The translations under genes and the position numbers were made by a program. From a virus, in UHGV virus genome UHGV-1970909: a stretch of DNA of 31,791 nucleotides, one strand, 5' to 3'. Under the pieces are notes generated by a model. That model was not told where the DNA came from. It did no database searches and saw nothing but the letters and a program-made list of their open reading frames with translations. Shown piece by piece: positions 7,058 through 30,595 of the stretch. Position 1 is the first letter of the stretch. Every line of letters starts with the position of its first letter.

Positions 7058-7642
7058 ATGTTTAAGTACGTTTTAGCACTAAATTTTATTTTTTTTGGCA
7101 ATACACACAACCTGATGAATTACTGGAAAGCGGAGGTTATCAGAAGAGAGAAATTTTCACTGCACCGTCTTTTAAGAGAGAAAAAACACCGGGGCAGAAA
7201 TTTTATTTTTTGGTGGCGCCTGGCAAATGAAATGTATTTGAATGGTGGGAAAATACACAAAAAAGCAGCAAAGCAAATCAATGCTCACCTGATGGAAAAA
7301 TTTGGCTGCGAAATATCACTTGGTGCAAATATTGGCAAAGGAATAAAAATTCCACATCATCATGGAATTGTCATTCATCATTTGGTAGACATAGGTGAAA
7401 ACTTAGTCATACGCCAAAACACAACAATCGGTCAAAAAGACAGCGATGGTAAATCCTTCAAATTGCACATTGGGGATAATGTTGATATTGGTGCAAACAC
7501 ATGTATTGTTGGCCTGAATCATACAATTGGAAATAATGTGAAAATTGGAGCGATGTCATTCGTTAACTGTGACATCCCGGATGATTGTACGCTTGTTACG
7601 ACTAAAACGACCCGATTCATTAGCCATAACAACATATCATAA
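7058..7642 (+). CDS. Cargo gene: left-handed beta-helix (hexapeptide-repeat) acetyl/acyltransferase, CysE/WcaB-like, 194 aa
   Basis: Translation contains tandem hexapeptide repeats (IGANIGKGIKIP..., IGENLVIRQNTTIGQKD, IGDNVDIGANTCIVGLNHTIGNNVKIGAMSFV); AT-rich; opposite strand to flanking tail genes; sits at the P2 Z/fun position between G and FI. Exact start uncertain. Confidence 0.7.
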   Translation: MFKYVLALNFIFFGNTHNLMNYWKAEVIRREKFSLHRLLREKKHRGRNFIFWWRLANEMYLNGGKIHKKAAKQINAHLMEKFGCEISLGANIGKGIKIPHHHGIVIHHLVDIGENLVIRQNTTIGQKDSDGKSFKLHIGDNVDIGANTCIVGLNHTIGNNVKIGAMSFVNCDIPDDCTLVTTKTTRFISHNNIS

Positions 7643-12402: not shown

Positions 12403-12789
12403 GGGGAAAGGATGCCGCCGGGGAGGGGCAGCAGCAATCGAGCGGGGTTTTATGAGGGATGAAACAACAAACGGCAACTCAGACTTGTCATTACAGACCA
12501 ACACCTCCTTTGAGGGGCTGATTGAAACCTAGTCGAACATCCAGCGTTGTTCCTTAGCTGCGTGACAATGTTTTTGAACACAGTATTGGCCAAAGCTGAG
12601 CCGAAATTGGCATCCTACGAAAAATTCGATTTCTCTAGCCAGTAGTTCGATTTTAGATTTTGTATTACCTTACTCAATGAGTTTTTGGTCAGATTTTTAA
12701 CACACTCAACGCCAAAAGCGGGCGCTCACGTAAACATATCCATTTTTGCTTGAGACATATTTACTATTACAGTGAGCAGTTTATCTGTT

Positions 12790-12820
12790 TTCCAAAAGAG
12801 GCAGAGGTATATTTCTGCCT
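12790..12820 (-). terminator. Candidate terminator of the AT-rich membrane-protein cargo gene
   Basis: Hairpin AGGCAG (12799-12804) / CTGCCT (12815-12820) with a 10-nt loop, 14 nt past the stop, followed on the minus strand by CTCTTTTGG. Confidence 0.35.
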
Positions 12821-12833
12821 AGCGCATGTTGCC

Positions 12834-13820
12834 TTATGGATTTGACTTACCTGAAGTCTCTTTTTTTATTTCAAATTTCCCACCCTTGAACATGATATTC
12901 GAATCTTTGATTCCATACAAAAGCATTTCATAAGGATGGTTAATTTTTTGTTCTTTTGTAGCGATACTGGAATTCATCAATTGCAACAAAGCCACATGAT
13001 GTTCACTCGCCCCTAACTCTACCATTTTGGTAGCCATGTTGCTTATCTGTTCTCGTTTTAAAAAATCTTCCCGGAGAGAAAGTAACGTTAAACTTCGTGC
13101 GTTACAAAACTTTATCATGTAAACAACAAACGCACCTAACCCAATATAGGAAAACGATAATGCTAAATAAATAGACGGTGTGGTTATTATGTTTTGCCCA
13201 AATATAAGAAAACCCAGCAGGCCAAAAAAATAAAAAACATTCACCAAAATAAACATGTTACTCATCAGAGCCTTTGTACTTCGAGTTGCATCATATTCTT
13301 TCTCCAGATGCTCCAAAAATGATGATATTTTTATTAAATTTAACTTTTCAATTGTTTCCTTCTCTAAAATCTTGAATTGCTCACTCTCTCTAATTAATTT
13401 TTTGGTAGTGTCCTCCACTGTATCATGCAATGATTCAGTGATCGCCTCTTCAATTTTATTTTCAGAAAACACGCTTGTTAAAGCGTAATTGGCTAATTCC
13501 TTTTGTCTTTTCTCGATTAAACTTTCGACATTTTCTCTGTACGCATCAAAATATTTTTGACCACTCTCGTTTAGCAATATTTTACGAATATGAAATTTTA
13601 TTTTCTCATCTGCCATTGGTTGGCTTTCAGTGTTACCATTCTTCTTTGTGTTATTATCTTTAGTTTCCGCATTATACCTGTCCTTGCCTGAATCAAGTAA
13701 GTTCCGTGAAATGAATTTCACCACAGGACCACGCAGAATAGCTATAGCTATTGCCATTGCAAGAATGAATGGTGAAGCATCAATAAATGATCGCGCAAAT
13801 ACGAAAGAGATTTCACTCAT
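12834..13820 (-). CDS. Cargo gene: predicted integral membrane protein with coiled-coil region (about 329 aa), function unknown
   Basis: AT-rich ORF in the gap between V and S (P2 orf30 position). Hydrophobic helices at FILAMAIAIAIL and FILVNVFYFFGLLGFLIFG...IYLALSFSYIGLGAFVVYMI, with a long charged K/E-rich middle. Start chosen at MSEISF (ATG with GGGAA 6 nt upstream); the six-frame ORF begins at an upstream TTG. Confidence 0.7.
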   Translation of the reverse strand: MSEISFVFARSFIDASPFILAMAIAIAILRGPVVKFISRNLLDSGKDRYNAETKDNNTKKNGNTESQPMADEKIKFHIRKILLNESGQKYFDAYRENVESLIEKRQKELANYALTSVFSENKIEEAITESLHDTVEDTTKKLIRESEQFKILEKETIEKLNLIKISSFLEHLEKEYDATRSTKALMSNMFILVNVFYFFGLLGFLIFGQNIITTPSIYLALSFSYIGLGAFVVYMIKFCNARSLTLLSLREDFLKREQISNMATKMVELGASEHHVALLQLMNSSIATKEQKINHPYEMLLYGIKDSNIMFKGGKFEIKKETSGKSNP

Positions 13821-14133
13821 AAACATTTCCCTATCTAAAATCAAAGAGTTTACTTTTACCCATATTTTCTACTGACTGAACCAGTTTGACAAGAGAGATA
13901 AGCATCTTTAATATCGATTTTGCCCATTAGGCATGAAAATAAAAAATACCACATGAAATCAATATCATACAATGACCACGCGTTGACCTCATCCATAACC
14001 AATAAATTATCTGATCATGAAATTCTTGATATGCATTGCAGAATTCGATTTCCACCATTTCGCTTTTAGATGTTCATCAAATATCAACACCCCACTATCA
14101 GTAGTTGACAGATCAACTCGTAGCTAATTCAAA

Positions 14134-14574
14134 TCAGATGAGTAAAAAAAGATCCTCAATTAATTGTATATCGTTCCTGCTAAATCCGAGTAACTGGCGT
14201 TCTGGATATTGCACGTCCTGAGCATGAGGGTTTGGCCGGTCTTTGAGTCCGAACTGATGAATCTGCGCGATGCGTTGCACCTTGCCAGTGAATTCCACCA
14301 CGGCAGTATCATTGCGGCCACTGGCTTTCATGTAGCGACTGGTTCGCAACTTCTGAAACATCGCCCGTTTAATGCGTCCTTTTTTTGCCCTCAGCGGCTG
14401 GCGTTTTCGTGCCTGATACGGCGTGCCATCAGGTGCTTTTTGCTGTTTGATTCGTTGCTGTTGCGATCTGCGCAGTTCCTTCGCAATCTCAGCGGCCAGC
14501 TTGCGCCGACCCACCGGTGATATTGCCGCAATCAGTCCCGCAAGTTTGTCATCAAAAGGTTTAAATTCATTCAT
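14134..14574 (-). CDS. S: Tail completion / virion morphogenesis protein gpS, 146 aa
   Basis: Synteny R-S-(cargo)-V and size as P2 gpS; overlaps R by 8 nt. Confidence 0.82.
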   Translation of the reverse strand: MNEFKPFDDKLAGLIAAISPVGRRKLAAEIAKELRRSQQQRIKQQKAPDGTPYQARKRQPLRAKKGRIKRAMFQKLRTSRYMKASGRNDTAVVEFTGKVQRIAQIHQFGLKDRPNPHAQDVQYPERQLLGFSRNDIQLIEDLFLLI

Positions 14575-15034
14575 CCCATTTGCTCACCAGTTCGCCATTG
14601 ATATACAGCTCAGTCGGTCGCGTCACCGGCTCGGGTAATGGTGGCTCAGGTGCATAGCTGACATGCAGCGCCCCGTTTTCATCCCTGACGAGGGTGCGCT
14701 CGGTAAGCTGCAGGCTGATACTGATATCAACATTATCCCCGTCATTTAAATCCATCTGGAATCGATAACCCTTTTTGCGCCCCTCATCCAGCGTGCAGAT
14801 GTCCGGCTGGTTCTCACGCAGCCACGCGGCTACCGGCACGAAAATCAGGTCAGGGTCGCCGACAAAATCGCAGACAATCACATTCAGGGTGTAATTCTTT
14901 TCATGAGACAGCGAGGCCGCAAGACGCGCATCGATATTCCCCTCATCGGCAAAGATACGCATCATTTCGGGATTGTTTTTTAACTGCGGTACAGCGTCAG
15001 TAAGCGCCTGGCGCAGGCTTTTCATTTTCTGCAT
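14567..15034 (-). CDS. R: Tail completion protein gpR, 155 aa
   Basis: Synteny directly downstream of the lysis cassette; same length as P2 gpR. Confidence 0.85.
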   Translation of the reverse strand: MQKMKSLRQALTDAVPQLKNNPEMMRIFADEGNIDARLAASLSHEKNYTLNVIVCDFVGDPDLIFVPVAAWLRENQPDICTLDEGRKKGYRFQMDLNDGDNVDISISLQLTERTLVRDENGALHVSYAPEPPLPEPVTRPTELYINGELVSKWDE

Positions 15035-15287
15035 CGATTTTATCCTGACAGTCTTTGATGGTTTCGACCTTTATCGCGCAGGCGGTGAGCGCGTGCTCAA
15101 GCCTGCGAATATCGGCACTCAGGTCGCCGTTAGTTGTGGGCTCGCTTCCCGGCATCGGGCAGAGGCTCACCTTCTGGCAGGCGTTGTAAACAATGACCGG
15201 CGGAGGCGCAGCCGGTGCGGGTGTGCAACCGGCGCACAGCATCAGGCAAGTCAGCGCTATACCAGCGGCGCAAATCCTCGTTTTCAT
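14997..15287 (-). CDS. lysC: Rz1-like outer-membrane lipoprotein spanin (LysC-like), embedded/overlapping
   Basis: Signal peptide plus lipobox (LMLCAGC) followed by a Pro-rich segment; starts inside lysB in another frame and runs into R, the P2 lysB/lysC arrangement. Confidence 0.5.
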   Translation of the reverse strand: MKTRICAAGIALTCLMLCAGCTPAPAAPPPVIVYNACQKVSLCPMPGSEPTTNGDLSADIRRLEHALTACAIKVETIKDCQDKIDAENEKPAPGAY

Positions 15288-15555
15288 TCAGCAGCCTCGT
15301 TATGGTTTGTTCACGTCTTACCGCCAGCTCTCCGGCGGCGTTCAGCTCGTCGCTGAGCCTGACCTGCGCGGCTTCATTCGTCCTGGCGATGCGCTGCGAT
15401 ACGGCAAACTGATTTTTCAGCATACCAATCGTCGTCTTTTGCTCATTGGCGACCCGGTTCGCCTTTTCAAAGGAGCGGGATAAATTCGCGTTATCGTGGC
15501 GCAGCCACAGCACCACGGCGAGCAGCCCGGCCAGCAGAATAATCAGCACTTTCAT
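15130..15555 (-). CDS. lysB: Rz-like inner-membrane spanin (LysB-like), 141 aa
   Basis: Start at MKVLIILLAGLLAVVLW (N-terminal TM anchor) followed by a coiled-coil region; ATGA overlap with the endolysin stop. Confidence 0.75.
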   Translation of the reverse strand: MKVLIILLAGLLAVVLWLRHDNANLSRSFEKANRVANEQKTTIGMLKNQFAVSQRIARTNEAAQVRLSDELNAAGELAVRREQTITRLLNENEDLRRWYSADLPDAVRRLHTRTGCASAGHCLQRLPEGEPLPDAGKRAHN

Positions 15556-16061
15556 TGCATCCCCTTCACGCAGTAAGCCCACTCCCGATCGCGTCGGTTT
15601 TCCAGCCCCCGGTTTCGGACACCATTCACGTACACCCAGCGGGTGAGCTGGTCGCACGCCTGCCACCACTGATGACGCTTTATATACGAGACCAGCGTCG
15701 AACGGCAGGCAGCGCCCGTTCCCACGTTAAAGGCAAAACTGACCAGCGTGTCATAGACGCGCGGTGGCATATCCACCGGCACACAGACCGCGAGCCGTTG
15801 CTCAGTGTTGAGTACATCCGCAACGAGGTTTTCCGCCGCACGCTGCTCGGTGATATCCCCTTTAGGGACGACACCGGCAGTGTGGCCAATGCCCGACGTC
15901 CACACGCCCGCGCTGCACTGGTAAGGCGTCAGGCGACATCCTTCAAGGTCAGCAATCAGCGCCAGCCCCTCGGGCGAGGTGTTAAGCAGACGAAAGTCAG
16001 GCACCAGTGCCGCCAGCGCCAGCACGGCGGCCACACTGCAGCGTTTAATGATTGAGCTCAC
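15552..16061 (-). CDS. K: Endolysin, lysozyme-like, probably signal-anchor-release (SAR) type, 169 aa
   Basis: N-terminal weakly hydrophobic stretch CSVAAVLALAALVP, then an E...C...T arrangement (ADLEGCRLTPYQCSAGVWT) resembling SAR endolysins of the T4-lysozyme fold; position between holin and spanins. Confidence 0.82.
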   Translation of the reverse strand: MSSIIKRCSVAAVLALAALVPDFRLLNTSPEGLALIADLEGCRLTPYQCSAGVWTSGIGHTAGVVPKGDITEQRAAENLVADVLNTEQRLAVCVPVDMPPRVYDTLVSFAFNVGTGAACRSTLVSYIKRHQWWQACDQLTRWVYVNGVRNRGLENRRDREWAYCVKGMQ

Positions 16062-16266
16062 GTATCGCCCCCTTATCGAGTCCGAGCGATTTCAGATAGC
16101 GAAAGGTTTTGCGCTTAAACCAGTAGTTCGTCAGCGCGGTAAAAATGGCGCAGGCACTACCCACATACAACGCCAGCTTTTCGGGCGACATCGCCCCGAA
16201 ATAGGCCAGTCCCACGGCCAGCCAGTAAGCGATAAAGGTCGTGATTTTTTCCACACTCAGTCCCAT
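16045..16266 (-). CDS. Y: Holin (two-TM, pinholin-like), 73 aa
   Basis: Two hydrophobic helices (ITTFIAYWLAVGLAYFGAM; LALYVGSACAIFTALTNYW) and a basic C-terminus; immediately upstream of the endolysin. Confidence 0.6.
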   Translation of the reverse strand: MGLSVEKITTFIAYWLAVGLAYFGAMSPEKLALYVGSACAIFTALTNYWFKRKTFRYLKSLGLDKGAIRELNH

Positions 16267-16460
16267 AGATTCACCGTTTCGGTTTTCGGAGCGCTGTCGG
16301 TTTCGGGCAGGTCAATAGCCGTGCCGTGCGGCACAATAACGCCCAGCTCTGCCAGCCCCGGATTCGCCTGCAGCACCGTTTCAACGACGCCCTCAGTGCG
16401 CCCGTAATACCGGGCGCAAATCACATCAAGGGTGTCACCCTGCATCGCATAAACCTTCAT
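16257..16460 (-). CDS. X: Tail protein gpX, 67 aa
   Basis: Start at MKVYAMQGDTLD gives 67 aa, the P2 gpX length; 1-nt overlap with the L stop. Confidence 0.8.
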   Translation of the reverse strand: MKVYAMQGDTLDVICARYYGRTEGVVETVLQANPGLAELGVIVPHGTAIDLPETDSAPKTETVNLWD

Positions 16461-16966
16461 CAGATTTGGCCGACAATACAGCGCGGCTTGTCCTGAATAC
16501 GCGCCACCGACCAGCGCATATCCCGCCACAGTTCATCGATAACCGCCTCGGCGCTTTCCGCCTTGCGGTCACCTTTCGCCGTCGCATCGATGCCGCGATA
16601 GCGTTCAAACAGGGTGGCACTGGTCATGGCGCAAACGGCGCGGAAATAGTGGAAACAGCGCACGCTTTCACCGTCGATATCATCGGCAGGCACATCCGCC
16701 AGCGTCTGATGACCTGCAGCCATCTGGTCAGCCCGCCACAGGGCAAGCTCCGCATTGGTTTCGGCCATACCGGCTTTAATCGCATCATTCAGGCGCAGCG
16801 GGGAAACGGTCTGCTCCAGACGCATCAACTCACGCACGCGCTTCGGATCAACATCAGGAAAAAAGAAGGTGTTTTTAATTACCGGCTCGCTCACGCCCGG
16901 TGGCGGTATCACCACGCCCGGCACGTCCTGCGGCTCTTTTTTTGGCTCAATAATCACTGTCGTCAT
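16460..16966 (-). CDS. L: Head completion/stabilisation protein gpL, 168 aa
   Basis: Synteny M-L-X and size as P2 gpL. Confidence 0.9.
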   Translation of the reverse strand: MTTVIIEPKKEPQDVPGVVIPPPGVSEPVIKNTFFFPDVDPKRVRELMRLEQTVSPLRLNDAIKAGMAETNAELALWRADQMAAGHQTLADVPADDIDGESVRCFHYFRAVCAMTSATLFERYRGIDATAKGDRKAESAEAVIDELWRDMRWSVARIQDKPRCIVGQI

Positions 16967-17065: not shown

Positions 17066-17821
17066 TTAACCTGCGGCTTTTGCCGCTTTCGGGGGACGCC
17101 CGCGCCGTGCCGCCGGTTTAGCGACAGGTTTGCGCGTGCGCGGTTTATTCTGTTTTGGTGCGGGTTCTGGTTTGGGTTTCAGCGCGCGTTCAAGCTGCTC
17201 AATATCCTTTTTCACACCGATAGCCCGCTCTAACTGGATCGCACGCTGCAGGTGCGCCAGCGCGTCAGTCAGGTTGCCAGCATCACGCAGCACGTAGCCG
17301 GTGATTTTGTGCAGCTTCGCACGCACGATATCGGGCATGTCTGCGCGTTCGGTCAGAGTGATGGTGTCGAGCAGGAGCGACAGCCCGACAGGCTGTTTTG
17401 CATCAAGCAGGCGCTGTGCTGACAGTGCGACCTCTTCGGCCAGTAAATACGGCGTTGTGCGGCGGTGGCCGCCGGTCGGCATGGTCAGGCCATACGTCAT
17501 CGCGTAACGGGCGATCTCCAGCGCACCGGCGATATCATCAGCATCAAGACGCCAGAGCATGACGGTCATGACAATGTCATCCTGCGCCCCTTTGCCGGAG
17601 CTGAGAACACCACCCACCCACGGCAGATAAAACGGCAACAGCTCGCGCTTTTTGTCTGCCTTGCGCTCGTTGGAGCGGATTTGTTTTAACGTGCGACAGT
17701 CTGCGGCCAGCTTGACGAGCATCTGCTCATAGGCAGTTGCATTACGCAGCGGAGCAGCAGCCCGCCGCGCAGTTTCAGAGGCCGAGACCCGCATCATGTG
17801 ACGCGCTGCGGGACTCGTCAT
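17066..17821 (-). CDS. M: Terminase small (endonuclease) subunit gpM, 251 aa
   Basis: Synteny N-M-L; basic C-terminal tail; size as P2 gpM. Confidence 0.9.
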   Translation of the reverse strand: MTSPAARHMMRVSASETARRAAAPLRNATAYEQMLVKLAADCRTLKQIRSNERKADKKRELLPFYLPWVGGVLSSGKGAQDDIVMTVMLWRLDADDIAGALEIARYAMTYGLTMPTGGHRRTTPYLLAEEVALSAQRLLDAKQPVGLSLLLDTITLTERADMPDIVRAKLHKITGYVLRDAGNLTDALAHLQRAIQLERAIGVKKDIEQLERALKPKPEPAPKQNKPRTRKPVAKPAARRGRPPKAAKAAG

Positions 17822-17824
17822 GGC

Positions 17825-18892
17825 TTATTCCCCGCTTTCCGGTGCGGCAGGTGCGGTGAAGTCACCAAGGTTGATGTTTTCAATCAGGCAACCGGCTGCG
17901 TAAGCCTCGATCACATAGTCAATATTCATTGACTCGTAGTTTTCGATACGGTCTTTTTTCGGCTCTTCAATGATGGCGCGGCGGTGCGCATCATCCATGA
18001 AGTAAATCGACAGGTTATCAAGACGCGTCACCATCAGGGCATTCGCCGGGAAGTACGGCACGCGCACGGCAGGCAGGTTGCCGATCCGCTTCTGGCTGAT
18101 GATGATGTCAGCGGCCAGCGTTTCGCTGTTTTCCTGCGCCTTGTTGACCAGCGGGAAATATTTATCCGCCATAAGCTTACGGCCTGTGATAACGACGAGC
18201 TCCGGGTCATCCTGATAAATCTCATCAATCAGGTTGGTGGTCGCATCCATGACCAGCGCATCGAGGTTTTCATAGTCACCGTTTTTCCCCACGCGGATCA
18301 CATCGGAAATAACCTTGCCGTCTTCGTCGGTGATTTTTGACATCACGCGCGCTGCAGCTTCATTGCGGTACTTTTGCAGCCAGCCCACCGCGACATCCTG
18401 CAGCAGCGGGTTCTGCTTACGGTTGGAGGTCGCCGCACGGGTAATACCGTTGAAACCGGCCATGATGAAATCGAGCGACTGGCGCTTGATAATTGCGTCA
18501 CGGATACGGGTCTGAAAGTCCTGGAATCGCGCCCACAGGTCGAGCTGTTTGTAACGAATATGGAAATCGAAGTTGATTTGCGCGCATTCGTATTTGTTGG
18601 ATTCGAGCGCGGTAAAATCAGCGGTCTTACGCTCATCATCAGCGGCGGTATCGGTGGTGCTCGCAATCGTACCGTTAACACCCACCCCGACTTTTTCGCC
18701 TTTCAGCTCGTCGACCGGCACGATATTCACTTTGGTCAGAAACGCGGATGACGCCTGCAGGGTGGTCATCAGGGTTTGCGTCACCGACGGCTCGACGGTG
18801 AATTTCTTTGCCACATCGTCGGTGTCGACGCCGTTCAGCTCCGCCACGCGGGACAGGTAAGCATTAAATTTAAAGCGGGTATCTTTACGCAT
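17825..18892 (-). CDS. N: Major capsid protein gpN, 355 aa
   Basis: Start at MRKDTRFKFNAYLSRVAELNG, which resembles the P2 gpN N-terminus as I recall it. Confidence 0.92.
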   Translation of the reverse strand: MRKDTRFKFNAYLSRVAELNGVDTDDVAKKFTVEPSVTQTLMTTLQASSAFLTKVNIVPVDELKGEKVGVGVNGTIASTTDTAADDERKTADFTALESNKYECAQINFDFHIRYKQLDLWARFQDFQTRIRDAIIKRQSLDFIMAGFNGITRAATSNRKQNPLLQDVAVGWLQKYRNEAAARVMSKITDEDGKVISDVIRVGKNGDYENLDALVMDATTNLIDEIYQDDPELVVITGRKLMADKYFPLVNKAQENSETLAADIIISQKRIGNLPAVRVPYFPANALMVTRLDNLSIYFMDDAHRRAIIEEPKKDRIENYESMNIDYVIEAYAAGCLIENINLGDFTAPAAPESGE

Positions 18893-18952
18893 TGTTATTC
18901 CTGTTTCTCTAAAAAGGGGCATCAGGCCGGGTGACGCGCACCCGGCGGGTTA

Positions 18953-21744: not shown

Positions 21745-22761
21745 ATGAAAAAACACCAAAAGAAAACCGCCAACATGACCGCCAGCGCACCGCAAAAAAT
21801 GGAGGCGTTCACCTTTGGTGAGCCTTCCCCCGTTCTGGATCGCCGCGACATCCTCGACTATGTCGAGTGCATCAATAACGGGAAATGGTACGAGCCGCCG
21901 GTCAACTTCTCGGGGCTGGCAAAAAGCCTGCGCGCCGCCGTCCATCACAGTTCCCCGATTTACGTGAAACGTAACATTCTGGCGAGCACCTACATTCCGC
22001 ACCCGTTGCTGTCACGTCAGGATTTCAGCCGCCTTGTGCTTGATTATCTGGTGTTTGCCAACGGCTATCTTGAAAAGCGCATGAGCGTCACCGGCCAGCT
22101 ATTAAAACTGGAAACCTCCCCGGCCAAATACACGCGGCGCGGTGTCGAGGATGGTGTTTACTGGTATGTATCGAGCTACACCCACCCGCACCCGTTCGCC
22201 CCCGGTTCGGTGTGTCATCTGCTTGAGCCCGATATCAATCAGGAGCTATACGGAATGCCGGAATACCTGAGCGCACTCAATTCAGCCTGGCTGAATGAAT
22301 CCGCCACCCTGTTTCGTCGCAAGTATTACCAGAACGGAGCACACGCGGGGTACATCATGTACGTCACCGACGCTGCGCAAAGCAGCACCGACGTTGAATC
22401 GCTCCGCAACGCGATGCGTGACTCGAAAGGGCTGGGGAATTTTAAGAACCTGTTTTTCTATGCGCCCAACGGGAAACCGGACGGGATCAAGATTGTGCCG
22501 TTGAGTGAAGTCGCCACGAAAGATGATTTTTTCAATATCAAAAAGGTGAGCGCCGCCGACCTGCTCGATGCGCACCGCGTGCCATTTCAGCTGATGGGCG
22601 GCAAGCCTGAAAACATCGGCTCAATGGGGGATGTCGAGAAGGTGGCGCGGGTGTTTGTGCGTAACGAACTGACACCGCTGCAAGAGCGTTTCAAAGAGAT
22701 TAACGACTGGCTGGGAATGGAGGTGATCCGCTTTAAAGATTACAGCCTCGAATCAGAATAA
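21745..22761 (+). CDS. Q: Portal (capsid vertex) protein gpQ, 338 aa
   Basis: Directly follows P and ends about 170 bp before cos, as in P2. Confidence 0.93.
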   Translation: MKKHQKKTANMTASAPQKMEAFTFGEPSPVLDRRDILDYVECINNGKWYEPPVNFSGLAKSLRAAVHHSSPIYVKRNILASTYIPHPLLSRQDFSRLVLDYLVFANGYLEKRMSVTGQLLKLETSPAKYTRRGVEDGVYWYVSSYTHPHPFAPGSVCHLLEPDINQELYGMPEYLSALNSAWLNESATLFRRKYYQNGAHAGYIMYVTDAAQSSTDVESLRNAMRDSKGLGNFKNLFFYAPNGKPDGIKIVPLSEVATKDDFFNIKKVSAADLLDAHRVPFQLMGGKPENIGSMGDVEKVARVFVRNELTPLQERFKEINDWLGMEVIRFKDYSLESE

Positions 22762-23194: not shown

Positions 23195-24460
23195 ATGAAT
23201 ATAATGAAATGTTTTGAATGCGAAACCTGTGGTACACACATTGATTGTAGAATAGGACTTTCAAATCGAGATGTGCAGCCTTTTCAGTTTGCTTGTCCTG
23301 AATGTGAAGAAAAAATTACTTTTAATATTTTGGGTGAAGACTTCAACCTAGAAGGGGCCATTGATCTTGTTGATTTTGAGGCACCATTTACGGGGGGTAA
23401 TCATTTCATAGATTTACACTTGGATTTTCCCGCCTCATTTGAAAAATATGAAATGGGATTTACTCCATTCATGCGAGCTGCTCAGGAAATCGGTCATGAG
23501 AACTATCAGCATCTTAATGAGAGACTGAATGCTCTTAACTACTTATACCCTAAAAAGAGAGAGTTAAGACGCTTAATAACTCAGTATAAACGAGGCGAAG
23601 TAAATACATTTCGAAAAACCTGCAATAAGCTTCTTGGTATACAATTAAAATCTAATAAGAAACAAGATATATTAGCCGCTTTGTATACAGCAACATCCAT
23701 AATGTCTTCACCTTTTACCATACATCAACATAATGAAGAAATAAGCACTAAAATGCCTGATTTATTACGTTCGCTTGATTACACTCACAAAATAAAAACA
23801 AGGGCGTTTTTTGAACAGTTAATTAAAACTGGTTTCTTACGAAATGTACACCATGAATGCCTATCCTTGTACCCAAAAATCGTAGAATTAGACCTACCAT
23901 TAAGGCCAGCCCTTTATTTTGACTACAAGCAATTAAATGAAGGGGATAAAATTTCAGGGCGGGTTTCAACTGCTGACTTTGATAGTTGCAGTAATTTATA
24001 TAAGGATCTATCTGAAGTCTTTTCGCGATTATTAACATTAGTTGCGGGGCTTAATAATCTGCTAAAACGTGGAGATTATGATCTGTTTGATGATTCAGTT
24101 CGTTTAAATAAAAAACAAGAATTAATTAAAGAACTTGCATCTTTAAATAATTTTACCAATATGGATTTAGGTAAAAAAATAGAGTGTATTGATGATTCAT
24201 TTTATTACATCGACAAGAGTGCAATTAATCACAAGTTACGAAATGCAATTGCCCATTATAAATATGAGTACGAAGAATCTACACAAATGATTTTCTATTA
24301 CCCAAATAGAGAAGGAATGAGCAGAGAGAACATGTATGAAATTTCATTTCTTGAATTTCTTAGATATTCTTTGATGCTTTTTCGTGAGGTTCATTCATTG
24401 AATCACATTGTTAAATCATTGTTTTTTTACACTGTGCTTGTTTTAAAGAAGGACATTTAA
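23195..24460 (+). CDS. Cargo gene: N-terminal zinc-ribbon + C-terminal HEPN-like (R-x4-H) domain protein, 421 aa; candidate abortive-infection RNase
   Basis: AT-rich ORF with a strong AAGGAG Shine-Dalgarno; N-terminus CFECETCGTH...ACPECEEK (C-x2-C...C-x2-C); C-terminal motif HKLRNAIAHYKYEY (R349-N-x3-H354, nt 24239-24256); sits between cos and A, where P2 carries tin/old. Confidence 0.75.
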   Translation: MNIMKCFECETCGTHIDCRIGLSNRDVQPFQFACPECEEKITFNILGEDFNLEGAIDLVDFEAPFTGGNHFIDLHLDFPASFEKYEMGFTPFMRAAQEIGHENYQHLNERLNALNYLYPKKRELRRLITQYKRGEVNTFRKTCNKLLGIQLKSNKKQDILAALYTATSIMSSPFTIHQHNEEISTKMPDLLRSLDYTHKIKTRAFFEQLIKTGFLRNVHHECLSLYPKIVELDLPLRPALYFDYKQLNEGDKISGRVSTADFDSCSNLYKDLSEVFSRLLTLVAGLNNLLKRGDYDLFDDSVRLNKKQELIKELASLNNFTNMDLGKKIECIDDSFYYIDKSAINHKLRNAIAHYKYEYEESTQMIFYYPNREGMSRENMYEISFLEFLRYSLMLFREVHSLNHIVKSLFFYTVLVLKKDI

Positions 24461-24865: not shown

Positions 24866-27088
24866 TTAGTCACCTATTAGCTTTGATGTTTCTGCCAATG
24901 CTGCAACACGATTGAGGATTTCCCTGGCCTTAGCCTGGCGTGATGGTGAGGTGGAAAATATCTCCCCTTTAGATGTTCCCTTGAGCCATTTTCCATCGAA
25001 ACAGCTTTTACCACCGGCCATAAGATGCAGGGCTTCACCCCGGCTGATGTTGATGCCGGTTGTCAGATGGATCTCGTCGATAGTCTTCTCTATCGCGGCG
25101 TTTTGCTCATCCGTGCCGTGGATAAATTTCTCCCTTTTTGGTGGCTTTGGCTTCTTGAGTCGGTTCGTCAGCTCTCGCCTTTCACGTCTACTCAGAGGTT
25201 TTGATAAATCGAGTTCCGGCGGATCACTTTCGCTTCCCGTACAGTTATTGACAGAACTCCAAGGGACGGCGAAGCCGTCCTTAACGTCAACGGCCAAATC
25301 AACGGCACGCTTCGGTACAATTTTCCATTGCGTGAGCCGGGTTAAAATCGGGGTGCCAGCTCCGACAGCAGAATCGTATACACCACGAATGCAGACAGTT
25401 TCCTCACCATACTGGTTAATTTCGGTACGCGGTTCATAAAGCGTGCGCACCTGCAAATCATCGCGACGGACAAACGGACCGCCCTGCGCATTAACATAGC
25501 CAGCCCAATCACCGGCGTCGGCGGCATCATGGACAGCCGCAAACTCAACACTCAGACCGTGTGCGGTCTCGGTATCTGCAAGGCGACGCAATTCACGATA
25601 GACAGTAACCGGCGCACCGCCAATAAACTGAAACTGGCGTATATGCCAGCGAGCAGCCCATGCTGAAACAGCGGGAGCTGACTCTTTTAGCAGTTCGCCG
25701 CTTTCATCATCGGTTTCACCATCAAGAGCATAACCATCGATATTTTTCGAGATGTATTTCGCGACGTAGCCGGTTGCGCTGCCTTTCTCCGGATCAATGG
25801 CTTCTGCGTGGAAACGTGCTTTTTTGGCTTTATCGCTTTTGAGTTCGTGAAAATCTTCCTGCCATGCGTAGTCCCGAATAATGCCACGAACGGTATCGAC
25901 GTCCTCCGGGAGCATAAACATCAGCATATGCCAGTGAGGGCAACCGTCATGGTGAGGCTCTGCAACGCGGATCCCGAAAATACGAATGTCTTCACGGTGG
26001 AGTTTTGCGCGAATGCGTGCCCACAGGCCAGTGAGATAACATTGCGTATCGGATGGATTGGATCCACTCCATTTGGTGTTACGGTAGCCTGCCTTTGTCG
26101 TGGCGTGATATTTAGACGGTGCGGTCAGGGTGTAAAACTCACCAACATAACCGAGCTCATTGCAGATATTTTCAAACCCACGAATGCGGGTCATAAGCTC
26201 ACAGCGTCGAATCGCAGGGTTAGCGACTGAGCCATCGTATTTTTCAATCAGGCTGATACGGTTGCCGTCTTCGTCTTCAAGCTCCAGACCTTTGAGAAAT
26301 TCGCGCGTCCGGCGCTTCTGTTCACGCCAGTCTGTCACGCAGTGTTTACTCGCGTAGACATGTTTTTTCTTACTGACATTTCCGATTGCGATTTGCAGGT
26401 GTTCGCGCCACGCAGCCGCAACGCGACGCAGACGTCCACGCCACCATTTTTCCGAAAACATACGGGCAATTGCTGGAGCGACTTTATCCTGATCCCAATA
26501 TTTATCCCGCGACCGTTCCCACTCTGGTGGCATTATCCTGAATTGCTGAGTGATGAAACCAGCATGCATATACCAGGCATTTAATGTCTCCAGTTCACAC
26601 ATGTCAGAATCGTCAATGTTGACTAACTCTGCACGGATAAAATCGGCGATATCAGCAGCCAGCAGGTCGATGTCGGCGCGTGCCATATCCGGGAGTCGGT
26701 TGTATCTGGCGACTATGTTGACCATGCGAGACGCCAGATATTGCATAAGCTGGGTATCGAAATGACAACCGAAAACAGCGGCTGATACGTTGCTGTTAAT
26801 ACCGGTGCACTCGTATTTTTTTGCGACCAGTTCAAGACGCGGCAATGCCTTTTTGCAAAAGCTGATTAAAAAGGCATTGGCTCGTTGACTGCCCTGATTT
26901 TGCTCCAGCACAGCAGCGGTGCGATAAACATCAAAACGCACACATTCAGGCTGGAGAGAAAGCACCTTTCTCGCATGCAGCAAAGCCGCGAACATACGGT
27001 CACGGCGATACTGTTGGTCGTAGGTAAGATATGGACTGGTTATTGCCGACCGTGGAGCATTCCACGGAAAAGCGAATTGAACAGCCAA
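24866..27088 (-). CDS. A: Rolling-circle replication initiation protein gpA (HUH endonuclease), 740 aa
   Basis: Contains EPHHDGCPHWHMLMF (HUH-type motif) and GYVAKYISKNIDGYALDG (active-site tyrosine region) as in P2 A; six-frame start is TTG overlapping the upstream stop, so the true start is uncertain (first in-frame ATG is at residue 32). Confidence 0.9.
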   Translation of the reverse strand: MAVQFAFPWNAPRSAITSPYLTYDQQYRRDRMFAALLHARKVLSLQPECVRFDVYRTAAVLEQNQGSQRANAFLISFCKKALPRLELVAKKYECTGINSNVSAAVFGCHFDTQLMQYLASRMVNIVARYNRLPDMARADIDLLAADIADFIRAELVNIDDSDMCELETLNAWYMHAGFITQQFRIMPPEWERSRDKYWDQDKVAPAIARMFSEKWWRGRLRRVAAAWREHLQIAIGNVSKKKHVYASKHCVTDWREQKRRTREFLKGLELEDEDGNRISLIEKYDGSVANPAIRRCELMTRIRGFENICNELGYVGEFYTLTAPSKYHATTKAGYRNTKWSGSNPSDTQCYLTGLWARIRAKLHREDIRIFGIRVAEPHHDGCPHWHMLMFMLPEDVDTVRGIIRDYAWQEDFHELKSDKAKKARFHAEAIDPEKGSATGYVAKYISKNIDGYALDGETDDESGELLKESAPAVSAWAARWHIRQFQFIGGAPVTVYRELRRLADTETAHGLSVEFAAVHDAADAGDWAGYVNAQGGPFVRRDDLQVRTLYEPRTEINQYGEETVCIRGVYDSAVGAGTPILTRLTQWKIVPKRAVDLAVDVKDGFAVPWSSVNNCTGSESDPPELDLSKPLSRRERRELTNRLKKPKPPKREKFIHGTDEQNAAIEKTIDEIHLTTGINISRGEALHLMAGGKSCFDGKWLKGTSKGEIFSTSPSRQAKAREILNRVAALAETSKLIGD

Positions 27089-28029: not shown

Positions 28030-28539
28030 TCATACCAAACCGAATGTTGCGCCAATGCCGGTCATGGTGTCGACGACACTCGACATTGCCGGGTTAGCCT
28101 GGAGGCGAGCCTGTAACGCCAGCGCCGACAATGACAGCATGCGAATACCGGCGTTAACGCTTTCAACCATGTTGTGTTTACGAGCAGAGGACAGGCGTTC
28201 ATCAGATGCAGCACCGTTCGCCAGTTCGCCGAGTTCGCTCATTGCGCGCATGACATAGGACTGCAATTTATCTTTAGCCAACTCATTAACCGGCACACAA
28301 GGTAGACAATGGATCTGCGCCAGAAAGCCATCAACGAGGGTTGAGTCTTCGGTCAGATCAGTCAGCAGCCATAACTCAGGCGGTGTGAACTGGTGAGGCT
28401 GTTCCGGGTTAAGTTTGTTACGTAACGTCTGAACATTCATACCCGCACGCTCGGCCAGCTTCGCCATGTTGTGACGCTGCGCGAAAGCCCGGCACGCTTC
28501 GTCATAGTGGGGATGTTTGGAAATTTGAAAATCAAACAT
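28030..28539 (-). CDS. cII: CII-like transcriptional regulator (186 CII family), 169 aa
   Basis: Same length as 186 CII as I recall it; helix-turn-helix segment MAKLAERAGMNVQTLRNKL; position downstream of apl. Confidence 0.78.
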   Translation of the reverse strand: MFDFQISKHPHYDEACRAFAQRHNMAKLAERAGMNVQTLRNKLNPEQPHQFTPPELWLLTDLTEDSTLVDGFLAQIHCLPCVPVNELAKDKLQSYVMRAMSELGELANGAASDERLSSARKHNMVESVNAGIRMLSLSALALQARLQANPAMSSVVDTMTGIGATFGLV

Positions 28540-28574
28540 GTATTTTTCCTCGCTATCTTAAATAATCGAGTTGC

Positions 28575-28799
28575 TCAGGCTGCCACATAGCGGCAATTGA
28601 GACCCTGAGCCAAGAGTCGAGCACGGAAGGCAACCATATTGATACGCGCTGCACCACCGTCTTTTTTACGAGGCATCAGGAGGAGGTCTCCATCAGCAAC
28701 CATCTGTTTTACAGTACGAATGCAGTAGCCGTAGCATTCGGCAAATTCGTCATAAGTCATGAGATCAGCGCCGGGCGGGATTGCAATTTGTGGAGTCAT
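28575..28799 (-). CDS. apl: Apl/Cox-like excisionase and switch repressor, 74 aa
   Basis: Small HTH protein (MTYDEFAECYGYCIRTVKQMV) as first gene of the lytic operon, divergent from cI, as in 186 (Apl) and P2 (Cox). Confidence 0.72.
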   Translation of the reverse strand: MTPQIAIPPGADLMTYDEFAECYGYCIRTVKQMVADGDLLLMPRKKDGGAARINMVAFRARLLAQGLNCRYVAA

Positions 28800-28864
28800 A
28801 AGTAATCATCTCCGGTTATTAGTTGGTTTGGTGCATTGGCGTGCATTTTTAAATTCAAGTGAGA

Positions 28865-28892
28865 ATCTTATCTCGAAAATGCGAGATGTCAA
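28865..28892 (-). promoter_or_regulatory. Candidate lytic promoter pR (minus-strand -35 TTGACA, 16-bp spacer, -10 TAAGAT) with palindromic operator in the spacer
   Basis: Minus strand TTGACA (28887-28892) and TAAGAT (28865-28870); perfect inverted repeat ATCTCG-N6-CGAGAT (28870-28887) lies between them; about 60 bp upstream of apl. Confidence 0.5.
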
Positions 28893-28924
28893 TTTGGATT
28901 TTCGCGATAACTCGGATTTTTAAG

Positions 28925-29503: not shown

Positions 29504-29507
29504 TGAT

Positions 29508-30536: not shown

Positions 30537-30595
30537 TTTTTTTTCTATGAATGTTTTGCGTGAAGATTCTTGTCCATTATTATTAAGGAGTTTGA

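What the first reader, a model, noticed from the sequence alone, without database searches (positions are those of the whole stretch)
15130..16266. Lysis cassette looks like holin/SAR-endolysin/spanin rather than a canonical holin-endolysin pair
The endolysin N-terminus is a weakly hydrophobic, Ala/Leu-rich stretch typical of signal-anchor-release domains, and the 73-aa two-TM holin resembles pinholins. There is no separate lysA-like gene between K and lysB. Rz1-like lysC is embedded out of frame across the lysB/R junction.
Basis: inference. Interest (0 to 1): 0.3.

Follow-up and report, generated by a model that had tools for sequence, protein, structure and literature searches.

The report
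P2-like prophage SAR-endolysin lysis cassette
This is the host-lysis gene block of a P2-like prophage, in which the classic P2 holin, endolysin and LysA genes are replaced by a small two-helix holin and a membrane-tethered (SAR) lysozyme while the P2 spanin pair is kept; the arrangement is real but common and already recognised in related phages.

Summary
Four overlapping minus-strand genes lie between tail gene X and tail gene R:
- a 73-aa two-helix holin (16045-16266);
- a 169-aa GH24 lysozyme (15552-16061);
- LysB i-spanin (15130-15555);
- LysC o-spanin (14997-15287), in the +1 frame, starting inside lysB and ending inside R.

No homologue of P2 Y, K or LysA occurs anywhere in the window.

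The lysozyme has a basic N-terminus (K6, R7) followed by a hydrophobic helix. It carries the P1 Lyz cysteine pattern: C8 in the helix, then E40-G-C42...C49...T55. Its best sequence and fold matches are P1 Lyz, then R21.

The holin is a distant relative of the phage 21 pinholin and the HP1 holin family. It scores below Pfam's thresholds for both.

The SAR reading is well supported. The pinholin (small-hole) reading is plausible but untested.

The cassette is ordinary:
- 58 of 80 species-level Enterobacterales genomes carrying a relative of this endolysin have the same arrangement.
- 104 complete E. coli genomes carry it.
- Phages Midge and RCIP0057 are already annotated with a SAR endolysin.
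- HP1, a P2-like phage, has an experimentally characterised pinholin/SAR-endolysin pair.

Interest is low.

The parts
16045..16266 (-). Class II (two-TMD) holin, 73 aa. The ATG overlaps the end of gene X by 10 nt. An alternative GTG start at codon 5 (16254) would give a 69-aa form.
   Evidence: PHROG 20 holin at 3e-21. Sub-threshold matches to PF16080 (HP1 holin, 22.6 bits against cutoff 28.8) and PF04971 (S21 holin, 18.3 against 26). hhalign against EssD gives prob 82%, E 1e-5. It is 40% identical to a Serratia NucE-like holin that passes the PF16080 cutoff. TMD analysis.
15552..16061 (-). GH24 (T4-lysozyme-type) endolysin with an N-terminal SAR-like signal anchor, 169 aa. It starts at GTG and overlaps the holin 3' end by 17 nt.
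   Evidence: PF00959 at 4e-36. Best PDB sequence hits are P1 Lyz 1XJT/1XJU, then R21 3HDE and RrrD 4ZPU. The AF2 model (pLDDT 78.6) matches full-length active P1 Lyz 1XJT best, TM 0.75.
15984..16040 (-). SAR-like hydrophobic segment, residues 8-26 (CSVAAVLALAALVPDFRLL), preceded by K6 and R7. It contains the invariant C8.
   Evidence: Translation. The 19-aa Kyte-Doolittle mean is 1.87, against 2.07 for P1 Lyz and 2.11 for RrrD; P2 K has no such window. C8 is invariant in 75 of 75 species loci and in 48 of 48 aligned homologues.
15897..15944 (-). Catalytic and caging motif E40-G-C42-x6-C49-x5-T55 (EGCRLTPYQCSAGVWT).
   Evidence: Translation. It aligns residue for residue with P1 Lyz E42-G-C44...C51...T57. 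It is invariant in homologues.
15130..15555 (-). lysB, an Rz-like i-spanin of 141 aa with an N-terminal TMD (residues 3-18). Its start codon overlaps the endolysin stop codon (ATGA).
   Evidence: TIGR03495 phage_LysB equivalog at 135 bits, cutoff 92.75. PHROG 89 at 2.8e-51. TMD Kyte-Doolittle mean 3.16.
14997..15287 (-). lysC, an Rz1-like o-spanin lipoprotein of 96 aa. It lies in the +1 frame, starts inside lysB, extends 133 nt beyond the lysB stop, and overlaps the R start by 38 nt ('overlapped' architecture).
   Evidence: NF038368 P2_Rz1 at 1e-35 and PF23793 at 5e-15. The signal and lipobox segment LTCLMLCAGC is identical to that of P2 LysC. Overlap arithmetic.
16257..16463 (-). Tail gene X (upstream boundary of the cassette).
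   Evidence: PF05489 at 1.2e-27.
14567..15034 (-). Tail completion gene R (downstream boundary of the cassette).
   Evidence: PF06891 at 2.8e-44.

Best explanation
This is the late-operon lysis cassette of a P2-like (Peduoviridae) prophage. The P2 Y-K-lysA module has been replaced by a two-gene module, and the P2 lysB/lysC spanin pair is retained.

The replacement module has two parts:
- a small class II holin of the S21/HP1 holin superfamily;
- a P1-Lyz-type signal-arrest-release lysozyme.

Proposed mechanism:
1. The Sec system exports the lysozyme. [quoted passage not shown]
2. While tethered it is inactive, because catalytic-position C49 is locked in a disulfide with C42.
3. The holin accumulates and triggers, collapsing the membrane potential, most likely through small holes.
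4. The SAR helix then leaves the bilayer. C8 attacks the C42-C49 disulfide and frees C49. The helix refolds into the enzyme body and the peptidoglycan is degraded.
5. LysB and LysC then fuse the inner and outer membranes.

Shown here: gene identities, overlaps, homologies, the conserved cysteine pattern, and the absence of Y, K and lysA.

Inferred: membrane tethering and release, disulfide isomerisation, and hole size.
For: Gene calls and family assignments:
- There is no P2 Y, K or LysA homologue in the window.

Endolysin relatives:
- The nearest solved relatives are the prototype SAR endolysins P1 Lyz (E 1e-22) and R21/RrrD.
- It is 32% identical to P1 Lyz, and the BLASTP alignment starts at C8 paired with P1 C13.

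N-terminal helix:
- The N-terminus has two basic residues and then a hydrophobic helix. Its 19-aa Kyte-Doolittle mean is 1.87, comparable with P1 Lyz (2.07) and RrrD (2.11), and no such window exists in soluble P2 K.
- This fits the published description of SAR endolysins (PMC9239132).
- Relatives at 55-62% identity have 16-27 uncharged residues at the same place, so the segment is homologous to a full TMD.

Cysteine pattern:
- C8, C42 and C49 are invariant in 75 species-level loci and in 48 aligned homologues.
- Among 38 diverse relatives with a TM-like N-terminus, 30 of the 33 with E-x-C...C have a Cys in that helix, and 0 of the 5 with catalytic Asp do (Fisher p 1e-4; the sequences are not independent).
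- The role of the catalytic-triad Cys disulfide in P1 Lyz regulation is described in PMC3556154.

Structure prediction:
- AF2 folds residues 10-30 as helices with mean pLDDT of 83 (residues 11-20) and 91 (residues 21-30).
- The best PDB fold match is full-length active P1 Lyz 1XJT (TM 0.75, 174 columns). In that structure the SAR segment is part of the folded enzyme.

Holin:
- It has two TMDs and a basic tail. It is related to the S21 pinholin homologue EssD and, through a Serratia homologue, to the HP1 family.
- S21 68 has been shown experimentally to be a pinholin (PMC9239132). HP1 Hol was concluded to be one from its lack of beta-galactosidase leakage and killing without lysis (PMC7312051).

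Independent annotation:
- Expert annotators labelled an 87.5%-identical protein in phage Midge 'SAR endolysin' and labelled its holin 'holin class II'.
Against: - The uncharged hydrophobic core is only 14 residues (C8-P21) and is followed by D22 and R24. P1 Lyz and R21 have 24 uncharged residues, and HP1 Lys has 16.
- The core contains no Gly and is 43% G/A/S/T, against 50-62% in the prototypes. It therefore looks partly like the h-region of a signal peptide.
- No SignalP or TMHMM-type predictor was available.
- The holin misses the curated Pfam cutoffs for both PF16080 and PF04971. It shows no direct similarity to HP1 Hol or to the P1 pinholin LydD.
- The holin's TMD1 (17-aa Kyte-Doolittle mean 1.54) is far more hydrophobic than the SAR-like TMD1 of EssD (0.56).
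- The holin lacks the Lys-containing dual-start motif of S21.
- SAR endolysins can also work with large-hole holins (P1 LydA, PMC9025707), so the pairing does not prove a pinholin.
- From my recollection, unverified because the paper is not held: the related Serratia NucE was reported to act as a holin in E. coli, possibly together with a soluble endolysin. If so, that would argue for large holes.
Confidence: 0.78

Rival explanations
1. The cassette and SAR endolysin are as described, but the 73-aa protein is a canonical large-hole holin. It simply depolarises the membrane, as P1 LydA does for Lyz, and is not a pinholin.
For: - TMD1 is not SAR-like: its 17-aa Kyte-Doolittle mean is 1.54, against 0.56 in EssD.
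- It has no S21-type dual start with an extra Lys.
- It falls below the Pfam cutoffs for the two families whose type members (S21 68, HP1 Hol) are characterised pinholins.
- SAR endolysins work with canonical holins (PMC9025707; N4 gp61 in the bioRxiv preprint).
- The homologous Serratia NucE is cited as functioning as a holin in E. coli (title cited in PMC4259817). My unverified recollection is that it supported lysis with a soluble endolysin.
Against: - Its only detectable characterised relatives are the S21 pinholin family and the HP1 pinholin family.
- It is only 69-73 aa with two TMDs.
- TMD2 keeps a small-residue face (A32, G36, A40, A44) at the positions of the S21-type G40/S44/G48. This comes from my ungapped alignment of the sequences; G36 is invariant and A32, A40 and A44 are at least 90% conserved.
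Confidence: 0.35
2. The endolysin N-terminus is a cleavable Sec signal peptide. The enzyme would then be secreted and free in the periplasm, as in Oenococcus fOg44 Lys44 or as re-evaluated for T4 RI, and would be controlled by something other than membrane tethering.
For: - The architecture is short and signal-peptide-like: n-region MSSIIKR, a 13-14 residue h-region, then Pro-Asp.
- HP1 Lys, which has a similar 16-residue stretch, was called a signal peptide by SignalP (PMC7312051).
- There is precedent for a supposed SAR domain that turned out to be cleaved (PMC8385771, listed).
Against: - By my manual inspection of the sequence, there is no good -3/-1 small-residue cleavage site after P21. 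The residues that follow are D, F, R, L, L, N; the only candidates are A-L-A|A inside the h-region or L-N-T|S.
- C8 lies at the n/h boundary and would be discarded with a cleaved peptide. Yet it is invariant across 75 species loci at 61-90% identity, and it co-occurs with the caging cysteines.
- AF2 packs the N-terminal helix onto the enzyme with high confidence, and the model matches full-length active P1 Lyz best.
Confidence: 0.1
3. The true endolysin start is the internal GTG/ATG at codon 10, as in several database entries of 158-160 aa. That would give a protein without K6, R7 and C8, which would be cytoplasmic and holin-dependent.
For: Several homologues in public databases are annotated with this shorter start.
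Against: - The upstream GTG has a strong AAGGGGG Shine-Dalgarno sequence at 6-nt spacing.
- R7 and C8 lie downstream of the holin stop codon, so their invariance is not imposed by the overlapping holin frame.
- Even a start at V10 would leave most of the hydrophobic helix at the N-terminus.
Confidence: 0.03

Closest known systems
Haemophilus phage HP1 hol-lys-orf25 cassette (Peduoviridae, Hpunavirus), concluded experimentally to be a pinholin plus SAR endolysin (PMC7312051)
   Same: - Both are P2-like myophages.
- Both have a small class II holin with no dual start and no antiholin, and the holin overlaps the endolysin gene.
- Both endolysins are GH24 lysozymes with a short uncharged N-terminal stretch (16 aa in HP1, 14 here). 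Both carry the same Cys-in-helix plus E-G-C...C pattern.
- In both, a LysB-like gene follows directly.
   Different: - The endolysins are only 29% identical.
- The holins show no direct similarity.
- The cassette lies after the tail tube gene in HP1, not between X and R.
- HP1 is not annotated with a LysC-type overlapped o-spanin.
Phage P1 Lyz (PDB 1XJT/1XJU), the prototype SAR endolysin activated by disulfide isomerisation
   Same: - It is the best sequence and fold match.
- It has the same catalytic motif E-x8-C-x5-T.
- It has the same three regulatory cysteines: C13/C44/C51 in P1, C8/C42/C49 here.
- Each protein has seven cysteines in total (sequences), and the four other cysteines of the window enzyme are invariant in its close homologues.
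   Different: - Identity is 32%.
- The P1 SAR domain has 24 uncharged Gly/Ala-rich residues, against 14 Ala/Leu/Val residues followed by D22 and R24 here.
- P1 lyz is not in a holin-first cassette. It works with three holins (LydA, LydC, LydD).
Lambdoid phage 21 / DLP12 S21(EssD)-R21(RrrD)-Rz/Rz1, the paradigm pinholin/SAR-endolysin/spanin system
   Same: - The gene order is the same: holin, SAR endolysin, i-spanin with an out-of-frame o-spanin.
- The holin is detectably homologous (32-38% over 50-59 residues).
- The endolysin matches at E 2e-18.
   Different: - R21 has catalytic Asp and no regulatory cysteines.
- S21 has a very weakly hydrophobic TMD1 and an M-K-S-M dual start.
- The phage 21 spanins are embedded (lambda type), not overlapped (P2 type).
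Phage P2 Y-K-lysA-lysB-lysC
   Same: - The genomic slot between X and R is identical.
- lysB and lysC are equivalogs with the same +1 overlapped layout, and lysC overlaps R by the same 38 nt.
   Different: - P2 Y is a 93-aa holin with three hydrophobic stretches, P2 K is a soluble endolysin of another fold family, and LysA is a multi-TMD putative antiholin.
- None of the three has a homologue in the window.
Escherichia phage Midge, Klebsiella phage RCIP0057, the Yersinia vB_YpM_* phages, Erwinia phage EtG, and E. coli prophages
   Same: - They carry the same cassette family at 79-97% DNA identity.
- Midge is annotated 'SAR endolysin' and 'holin class II'. RCIP0057 is annotated 'SAR-endolysin'.
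   Different: - Midge, and 10 of 80 species loci, carry an extra lysA-like antiholin between the endolysin and lysB.
- The window belongs to the majority form without it (58 of 80).
Serratia nucE-nucD-nucC locus (holin, lysozyme, Ogr-like activator)
   Same: In Serratia sp. H1w the NucE-like holin is 40% identical and the NucD-like lysozyme 61% identical to the window proteins. The lysozyme has the same KRC...EGC...C pattern.
   Different: It is a stand-alone chromosomal remnant without X, lysB, lysC or R. Its role in nuclease secretion was proposed and later disputed (PMC4259817).

Membership tests
SAR (signal-arrest-release) endolysin | A muralytic catalytic domain; here GH24 with the E-x8-D/C-x5-T triad | tested here: met
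   PF00959 at 4e-36. The E40...C49...T55 motif was read directly and aligns with the P1 Lyz triad.
SAR (signal-arrest-release) endolysin | An N-terminus with 2-3 basic residues followed by an uncharged, weakly hydrophobic TMD | tested here: inconclusive
   - K6 and R7 are present.
- The 19-aa Kyte-Doolittle mean is 1.87, similar to P1 Lyz and RrrD.
- However, only 14 residues are uncharged, there is no Gly, and 43% are G/A/S/T against 50-62% in the prototypes.
- The homologous segment in relatives has 16-27 uncharged residues.
SAR (signal-arrest-release) endolysin | The signal anchor is not cleaved; the protein is membrane-tethered and then released on depolarisation or by a pinholin | not testable with these tools
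   Only indirect evidence is available: the invariant C8 in the helix and an AF2 model that resembles full-length active P1 Lyz. PMC9239132 calls release by a pinholin the definitive test.
P1 Lyz-type disulfide-regulated SAR endolysin | A Cys in the SAR helix, a Cys two residues after the catalytic Glu, and a Cys at the catalytic D/C position | tested here: met
   C8, C42 and C49 are invariant in 48 of 48 aligned homologues and in 75 of 75 species loci. The association holds in diverse relatives.
P1 Lyz-type disulfide-regulated SAR endolysin | Disulfide isomerisation on release activates the enzyme | not testable with these tools
   This needs thiol trapping or mutagenesis.
Phage 21 S holin / pinholin family (Pfam PF04971) | A score above the curated family threshold | tested here: not met
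   The score is 18.3 bits against a cutoff of 26. Weaker homology signals exist: BLASTP E 3e-4 and hhalign prob 82%, E 1e-5.
Phage 21 S holin / pinholin family (Pfam PF04971) | A SAR-like, very weakly hydrophobic TMD1 and a dual-start motif with an extra basic residue | tested here: not met
   - The TMD1 Kyte-Doolittle mean is 1.54, against 0.56 in EssD.
- The N-terminus MGLS(V/M)EK has no Lys or Arg between the two candidate starts.
Pinholin (functional class) | It forms nanometre-scale holes: lethal depolarisation without release of soluble endolysin or cytoplasmic proteins | not testable with these tools
   This needs the lambda S-null/R+ complementation test against S21-null/R21+, or a reporter leakage assay.
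HP1 holin family (Pfam PF16080) | A score above the curated family threshold | tested here: not met
   The score is 22.6 bits against a cutoff of 28.8. A 40%-identical Serratia homologue scores 51.1. HP1 Hol itself shows no direct similarity. NCBI names close homologues 'HP1 family phage holin'.
Class II holin (two TMDs, N-in/C-in, basic C-terminal tail) | Two hydrophobic helices separated by a short loop, and a positively charged C-terminus | tested here: met
   Uncharged stretches at 8-28 and 31-50, loop S-P-E-K, and a C-terminal net charge of +5. The topology itself is inferred.
P2 LysB/LysC two-component spanin, overlapped architecture | [quoted passage not shown] | tested here: met
   - TIGR03495 and NF038368 both score above cutoff.
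- The LysB TMD spans residues 3-18.
- The LysC signal and lipobox segment is identical to that of P2 LysC.
- lysC is in the +1 frame, overlaps lysB by 158 nt and extends 133 nt beyond it.
- The definition of 'overlapped' comes from PMC6139136.
Canonical P2 holin-endolysin-antiholin set (Y, K, LysA) | Homologues of Y, K and LysA lie between X and lysB | tested here: not met
   There is no BLASTP similarity between the holin and P2 Y. tblastn of Y, K and LysA against the whole window gives E of at least 1.9.

The most novel reading that the evidence does not exclude
This Enterobacterales subfamily may work by a variant mechanism rather than as a copy of the phage 21 system.

Two features suggest it:
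- The holin has a fairly hydrophobic TMD1 and a weaker TMD2, which is the reverse of S21. Its distant relative HP1 Hol was reported to be N-in/C-out when overexpressed. Hole formation might therefore involve externalising TMD2 and the C-terminus rather than TMD1.
- The endolysin has an unusually short 14-residue SAR core that ends in a conserved Pro-Asp. This could be a minimal SAR domain whose release is tuned by the D22(/R24) charges.

A 73/69-aa pair produced from the ATG(1) and GTG(5) starts could add charge-independent regulation.
Probability: 0.1. Interest if true: 0.4.

Novelty: already known. Interest (0 to 1): 0.1.

Why it matters
It matters mainly for annotation.

PGAP labels these genes only 'lysozyme' and 'HP1 family phage holin', 'hypothetical protein' or even 'primosomal protein'. 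The membrane-tethered nature of the enzyme is therefore lost.

The cassette shows clean module swapping inside the P2 late operon: the holin and endolysin were exchanged while the spanins were kept.

Biologically it adds nothing new to the established two-pathway picture of lysis in Gram-negative hosts. A SAR endolysin with a very short hydrophobic core could be a convenient minimal model for SAR release, but that is a modest point.

Tried and rejected
- **Direct homology to experimentally characterised pinholins other than S21.** HP1 Hol gave BLASTP E 1.2 and hhalign prob 0.7%. P1 LydD gave no alignment. Neither can be used as direct evidence.
- **A hidden lysA, Y or K elsewhere in the window.** None was found.
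- **Foreign composition of the cassette.** Its GC content of 0.56-0.62 matches the flanking phage genes, so there is no compositional sign of recent import.
- **NCBIfam naming of the holin.** There was no hit.
- **Primary papers.** The primary papers on P1 Lyz (Xu 2004), disulfide caging (Kuty 2010), R21 (Sun 2009) and NucE (Berkmen 1997) are not held in the library. Their content is cited only through other papers or marked as recollection.
- **Dedicated predictors.** No SignalP, TMHMM or Phobius equivalent was available. I used Kyte-Doolittle and uncharged-stretch comparisons against reference proteins instead.
- **The dual-start idea for the holin.**
  - The first four codons are dictated by the overlapping end of gene X.
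  - Codon 5 is M, V, L or T in homologues.
  - No basic residue separates the two candidate starts.
  - A classical antiholin isoform is therefore not supported.
Full report
**What is there**

The window is almost a complete P2-like prophage, with its late genes on the minus strand in P2 order. The genes from N to S are:

| Gene | Coordinates | Notes |
|---|---|---|
| N | 17825-18922 | |
| M | 17066-17821 | |
| L | 16460-16966 | |
| X | 16257-16463 | |
| holin ORF | 16045-16266 | 73 aa |
| lysozyme ORF | 15552-16061 | 169 aa |
| lysB | 15130-15555 | |
| lysC | 14997-15287 | |
| R | 14567-15034 | |
| S | 14134-14574 | |

The four lysis genes are tightly coupled:
- The holin ATG overlaps the end of X by 10 nt.
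- The endolysin GTG, preceded by AAGGGGG, overlaps the holin 3' end by 17 nt.
- The lysB ATG overlaps the endolysin stop codon (ATGA).
- lysC starts 268 nt into lysB in the +1 frame, shares 158 nt with it, runs 133 nt past its stop, and ends 38 nt inside R.

This is the P2 'overlapped' spanin layout (PMC6139136). It is not the lambda 'embedded' one.

The finding's coordinates are therefore correct, except that they omit the last 133 nt of lysC.

**Family assignments**

- LysB scores 135 bits against TIGR03495 (cutoff 92.75), and LysC matches NF038368 at 1e-35. Both meet NCBI's equivalog models for the P2 proteins.
- The LysC signal and lipobox segment LTCLMLCAGC is identical to that of P2 LysC.
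- The endolysin is a GH24 phage lysozyme (PF00959, 4e-36).
- The holin matches PHROG 20 'holin' at 3e-21. It gets only sub-threshold Pfam hits: PF16080, the HP1 holin family, at 22.6 bits against 28.8; and PF04971, the phage 21 S family, at 18.3 bits against 26.
- P2 Y, K and LysA have no counterpart anywhere in the 31.8 kb.

**Is the endolysin a SAR endolysin?**

*Closest relatives.* Its best matches among solved structures are P1 Lyz (1XJT/1XJU, E 1e-22), then R21 (3HDE) and DLP12 RrrD (4ZPU). These are the prototype SAR endolysins.

*N-terminus.* The sequence starts MSSIIKR and continues CSVAAVLALAALVPDFRLL. This is two basic residues followed by a hydrophobic helix, the general signature described for SAR endolysins (PMC9239132). 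The 19-residue Kyte-Doolittle mean is 1.87, against 2.07 for P1 Lyz and 2.11 for RrrD. Soluble P2 K has no such window.

*Atypical features.*
- Only 14 residues (C8-P21) are uncharged, against 24 in the prototypes.
- The segment has no glycine and is 43% G/A/S/T, against 50-62%.
- HP1 Lys, reported as a SAR endolysin on topology prediction, lysis when overexpressed alone and azide (Sec) sensitivity, has a similarly short stretch of 16 residues (PMC7312051).
- Relatives at 55-62% identity carry 16-27 uncharged residues at the homologous position, for example CLVGAVLAIAATLPGFQQLHTSV.
- The segment is therefore homologous to a full transmembrane helix, whose periplasmic end has acquired D22 and R24 in this clade.

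*Cysteine pattern.* This is the strongest argument against a cleaved signal peptide.
- The enzyme has E40-G-C42-x6-C49-x5-T55. This superimposes on P1 Lyz E42-G-C44...C51...T57.
- It also has a Cys (C8) at the start of the helix, as P1 has C13 and HP1 Lys has C11.
- In P1 Lyz the catalytic-triad Cys is held in a disulfide until activation (PMC3556154).
- C8, C42 and C49 are invariant in 48 aligned homologues and in 75 species-level loci at 61-90% identity.
- R7 and C8 lie downstream of the holin stop codon, so the overlapping frame does not impose this conservation.
- Among 38 diverse relatives with a TM-like N-terminus, 30 of the 33 with E-x-C...C carry a Cys in the helix. The three exceptions begin inside or right at the hydrophobic stretch, which may mean truncated gene calls. 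None of the 5 with a catalytic Asp carries one. The Fisher p is 1e-4, but the sequences are not independent.
- One database homologue has lost C8 and C42 together.

*Structure prediction.* An AF2 model (mean pLDDT 78.6) folds residues 10-30 as confident helices. Its best PDB match is full-length active P1 Lyz 1XJT (TM 0.75 over 174 columns), ahead of the N-terminally truncated inactive form 1XJU.

I put the SAR reading at about 0.8 and a cleaved signal peptide at about 0.1.

**Is the holin a pinholin?**

*Evidence for:*
- It is 73 aa, or 69 aa if translation starts at the GTG at codon 5.
- It has two uncharged stretches (8-28 and 31-50), a short S-P-E-K loop, and a +5 tail. This is class II architecture.
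- It is unrelated to P2 Y.
- It is weakly but reproducibly related to EssD, the DLP12 copy of the phage 21 pinholin. BLASTP gives 32% identity over 59 residues, E 3e-4. A profile of 22 homologues gives 82% probability, E 1e-5.
- In an ungapped alignment anchored on the shared LTN-x-(Y/W)-F-K motif, the S21-type G40/S44/G48 positions correspond to A32/G36/A40(/A44). G36 is invariant and A32, A40 and A44 are at least 90% conserved in the family.
- A Serratia homologue that is 40% identical passes the PF16080 threshold. This places the family in the S21/HP1 holin superfamily.
- S21 68 is an experimentally established pinholin (PMC9239132), and HP1 Hol was concluded to be one (PMC7312051).

*Evidence against:*
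- There is no direct similarity to HP1 Hol or to P1 LydD.
- TMD1 has a Kyte-Doolittle mean of 1.54, against 0.56 in EssD, so it is not obviously SAR-like.
- There is no basic residue between the two candidate starts.
- SAR endolysins also cooperate with large-hole holins (PMC9025707).
- The Serratia homologue sits in a holin-lysozyme-Ogr locus that matches nucE-nucD-nucC. NucE is cited as a functional holin in E. coli. I could not read that paper, so its bearing on hole size is unverified.

I rate pinholin against canonical holin at roughly 55:35.

**How common and how known**

- The same X, holin, endolysin, lysB, lysC, R block occurs at 79-84% DNA identity in isolated phages. These include Yersinia vB_YpM_*, Klebsiella RCIP0057 (annotated 'SAR-endolysin'), Erwinia EtG, Enterobacter ENT4, and Escherichia phage Midge.
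- The Center for Phage Technology annotated Midge with 'SAR endolysin' and 'holin class II'.
- The block occurs at up to 96.6% identity in E. coli. 104 of 5,426 complete genomes carry at least 80% of it.
- A scan of one genome per species found 199 stretches that encode a relative of the endolysin. Of the best 80 loci, 58 have exactly this arrangement and 10 have an extra lysA-like gene, as in Midge.
- The pinholin/SAR-endolysin/spanin pathway is one of the two textbook lysis pathways (bioRxiv 10.1101/2025.11.12.688109).

**Verdict**

The finding is ordinary: a common, already annotated cassette type that results from replacing the P2 Y-K-lysA module while retaining the P2 spanins.

Two points remain open. 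One is the hole size of this holin subfamily. The other is whether the unusually short SAR core behaves like the prototypes. Both are simple bench questions.

Noticed in passing
window 12550-14200 (ORF 12834-13844, minus strand): An AT-rich island (GC 0.31-0.37, against 0.55-0.62 around it) lies between tail genes V and S, in the slot of the non-essential P2 orf30. It holds one 336-aa ORF with hydrophobic segments. The ORF has no Pfam or PADLOC hit and is probably a cargo (moron) gene of unknown function.
   Followed up: partly
window 23195-24460 (+): A 421-aa orphan ORF lies between the portal-side gene Q (21745-22761) and the replication gene (24866-27088). It has no Pfam or PADLOC hit and is another candidate accessory gene.
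   Followed up: partly
window 7058-7642 (+): A 194-aa ORF on the opposite strand lies between the tail sheath gene and the tail-fibre assembly gene. It has weak, sub-threshold hexapeptide-repeat (acyltransferase-like) matches.
   Followed up: partly
window 16254-16266: The holin has two candidate starts: ATG at 16266 (73 aa) and GTG at codon 5, 16254 (69 aa). The first four codons (MGLS) are dictated by the overlapping end of gene X. Most database homologues have Met at codon 5 and many are annotated as 69 aa. The Serratia homologue begins exactly at that position.
   Followed up: partly
L001 484-774, L002 and L003 1091-1381: In phages Midge and RCIP0057 and the Yersinia phages, the o-spanin is annotated as a 52-aa ORF that lacks the signal and lipobox. 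The full 96-aa LysC ORF with LCVGC is present in the DNA (checked in Midge L001 and Yersinia L003). This is a wrong-start annotation error of the kind described in PMC6139136.
   Followed up: yes
proteins P0121, P0132, P0144, P0150 and others: Close homologues of the holin are widely named 'primosomal protein' in NCBI and UniRef records. This looks like a propagated misannotation.
   Followed up: no
L080 2799-3833 (Serratia sp. H1w): This is a stand-alone locus of holin, SAR-type lysozyme and an Ogr/Delta zinc-finger activator, with no X, lysB, lysC or R. It matches the Serratia nucE-nucD-nucC operon and looks like a domesticated remnant of this cassette.
   Followed up: partly
endolysin homologue listed (MSSIVKRYSVAAV...DLEGGRL): A single database homologue has lost C8 (to Y) and C42 (to G) together and has gained a Cys at position 24. 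This could reflect functional coupling of the two cysteines, or it could be a poor sequence.
   Followed up: no
window 15870-15941 (endolysin residues 41-64): The AF2 model is confident everywhere except residues 1-5, 41-48 and 51-64. The last two regions form the catalytic hairpin that holds C42, C49 and T55. From memory, this is the region that differs between the active and inactive P1 Lyz structures.
   Followed up: no
window 28030-31600: The immunity and integration end is of the 186/PsP3 type: a CII/CP76 gene (28030-28539), a CI repressor with PF07022 and PF16452 (28859-29503), and a 342-aa ORF (29508-30536) in the integrase position that I did not scan. A trypsin-like peptidase ORF follows (30596-31600) and may be a host gene or cargo.
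   Followed up: partly
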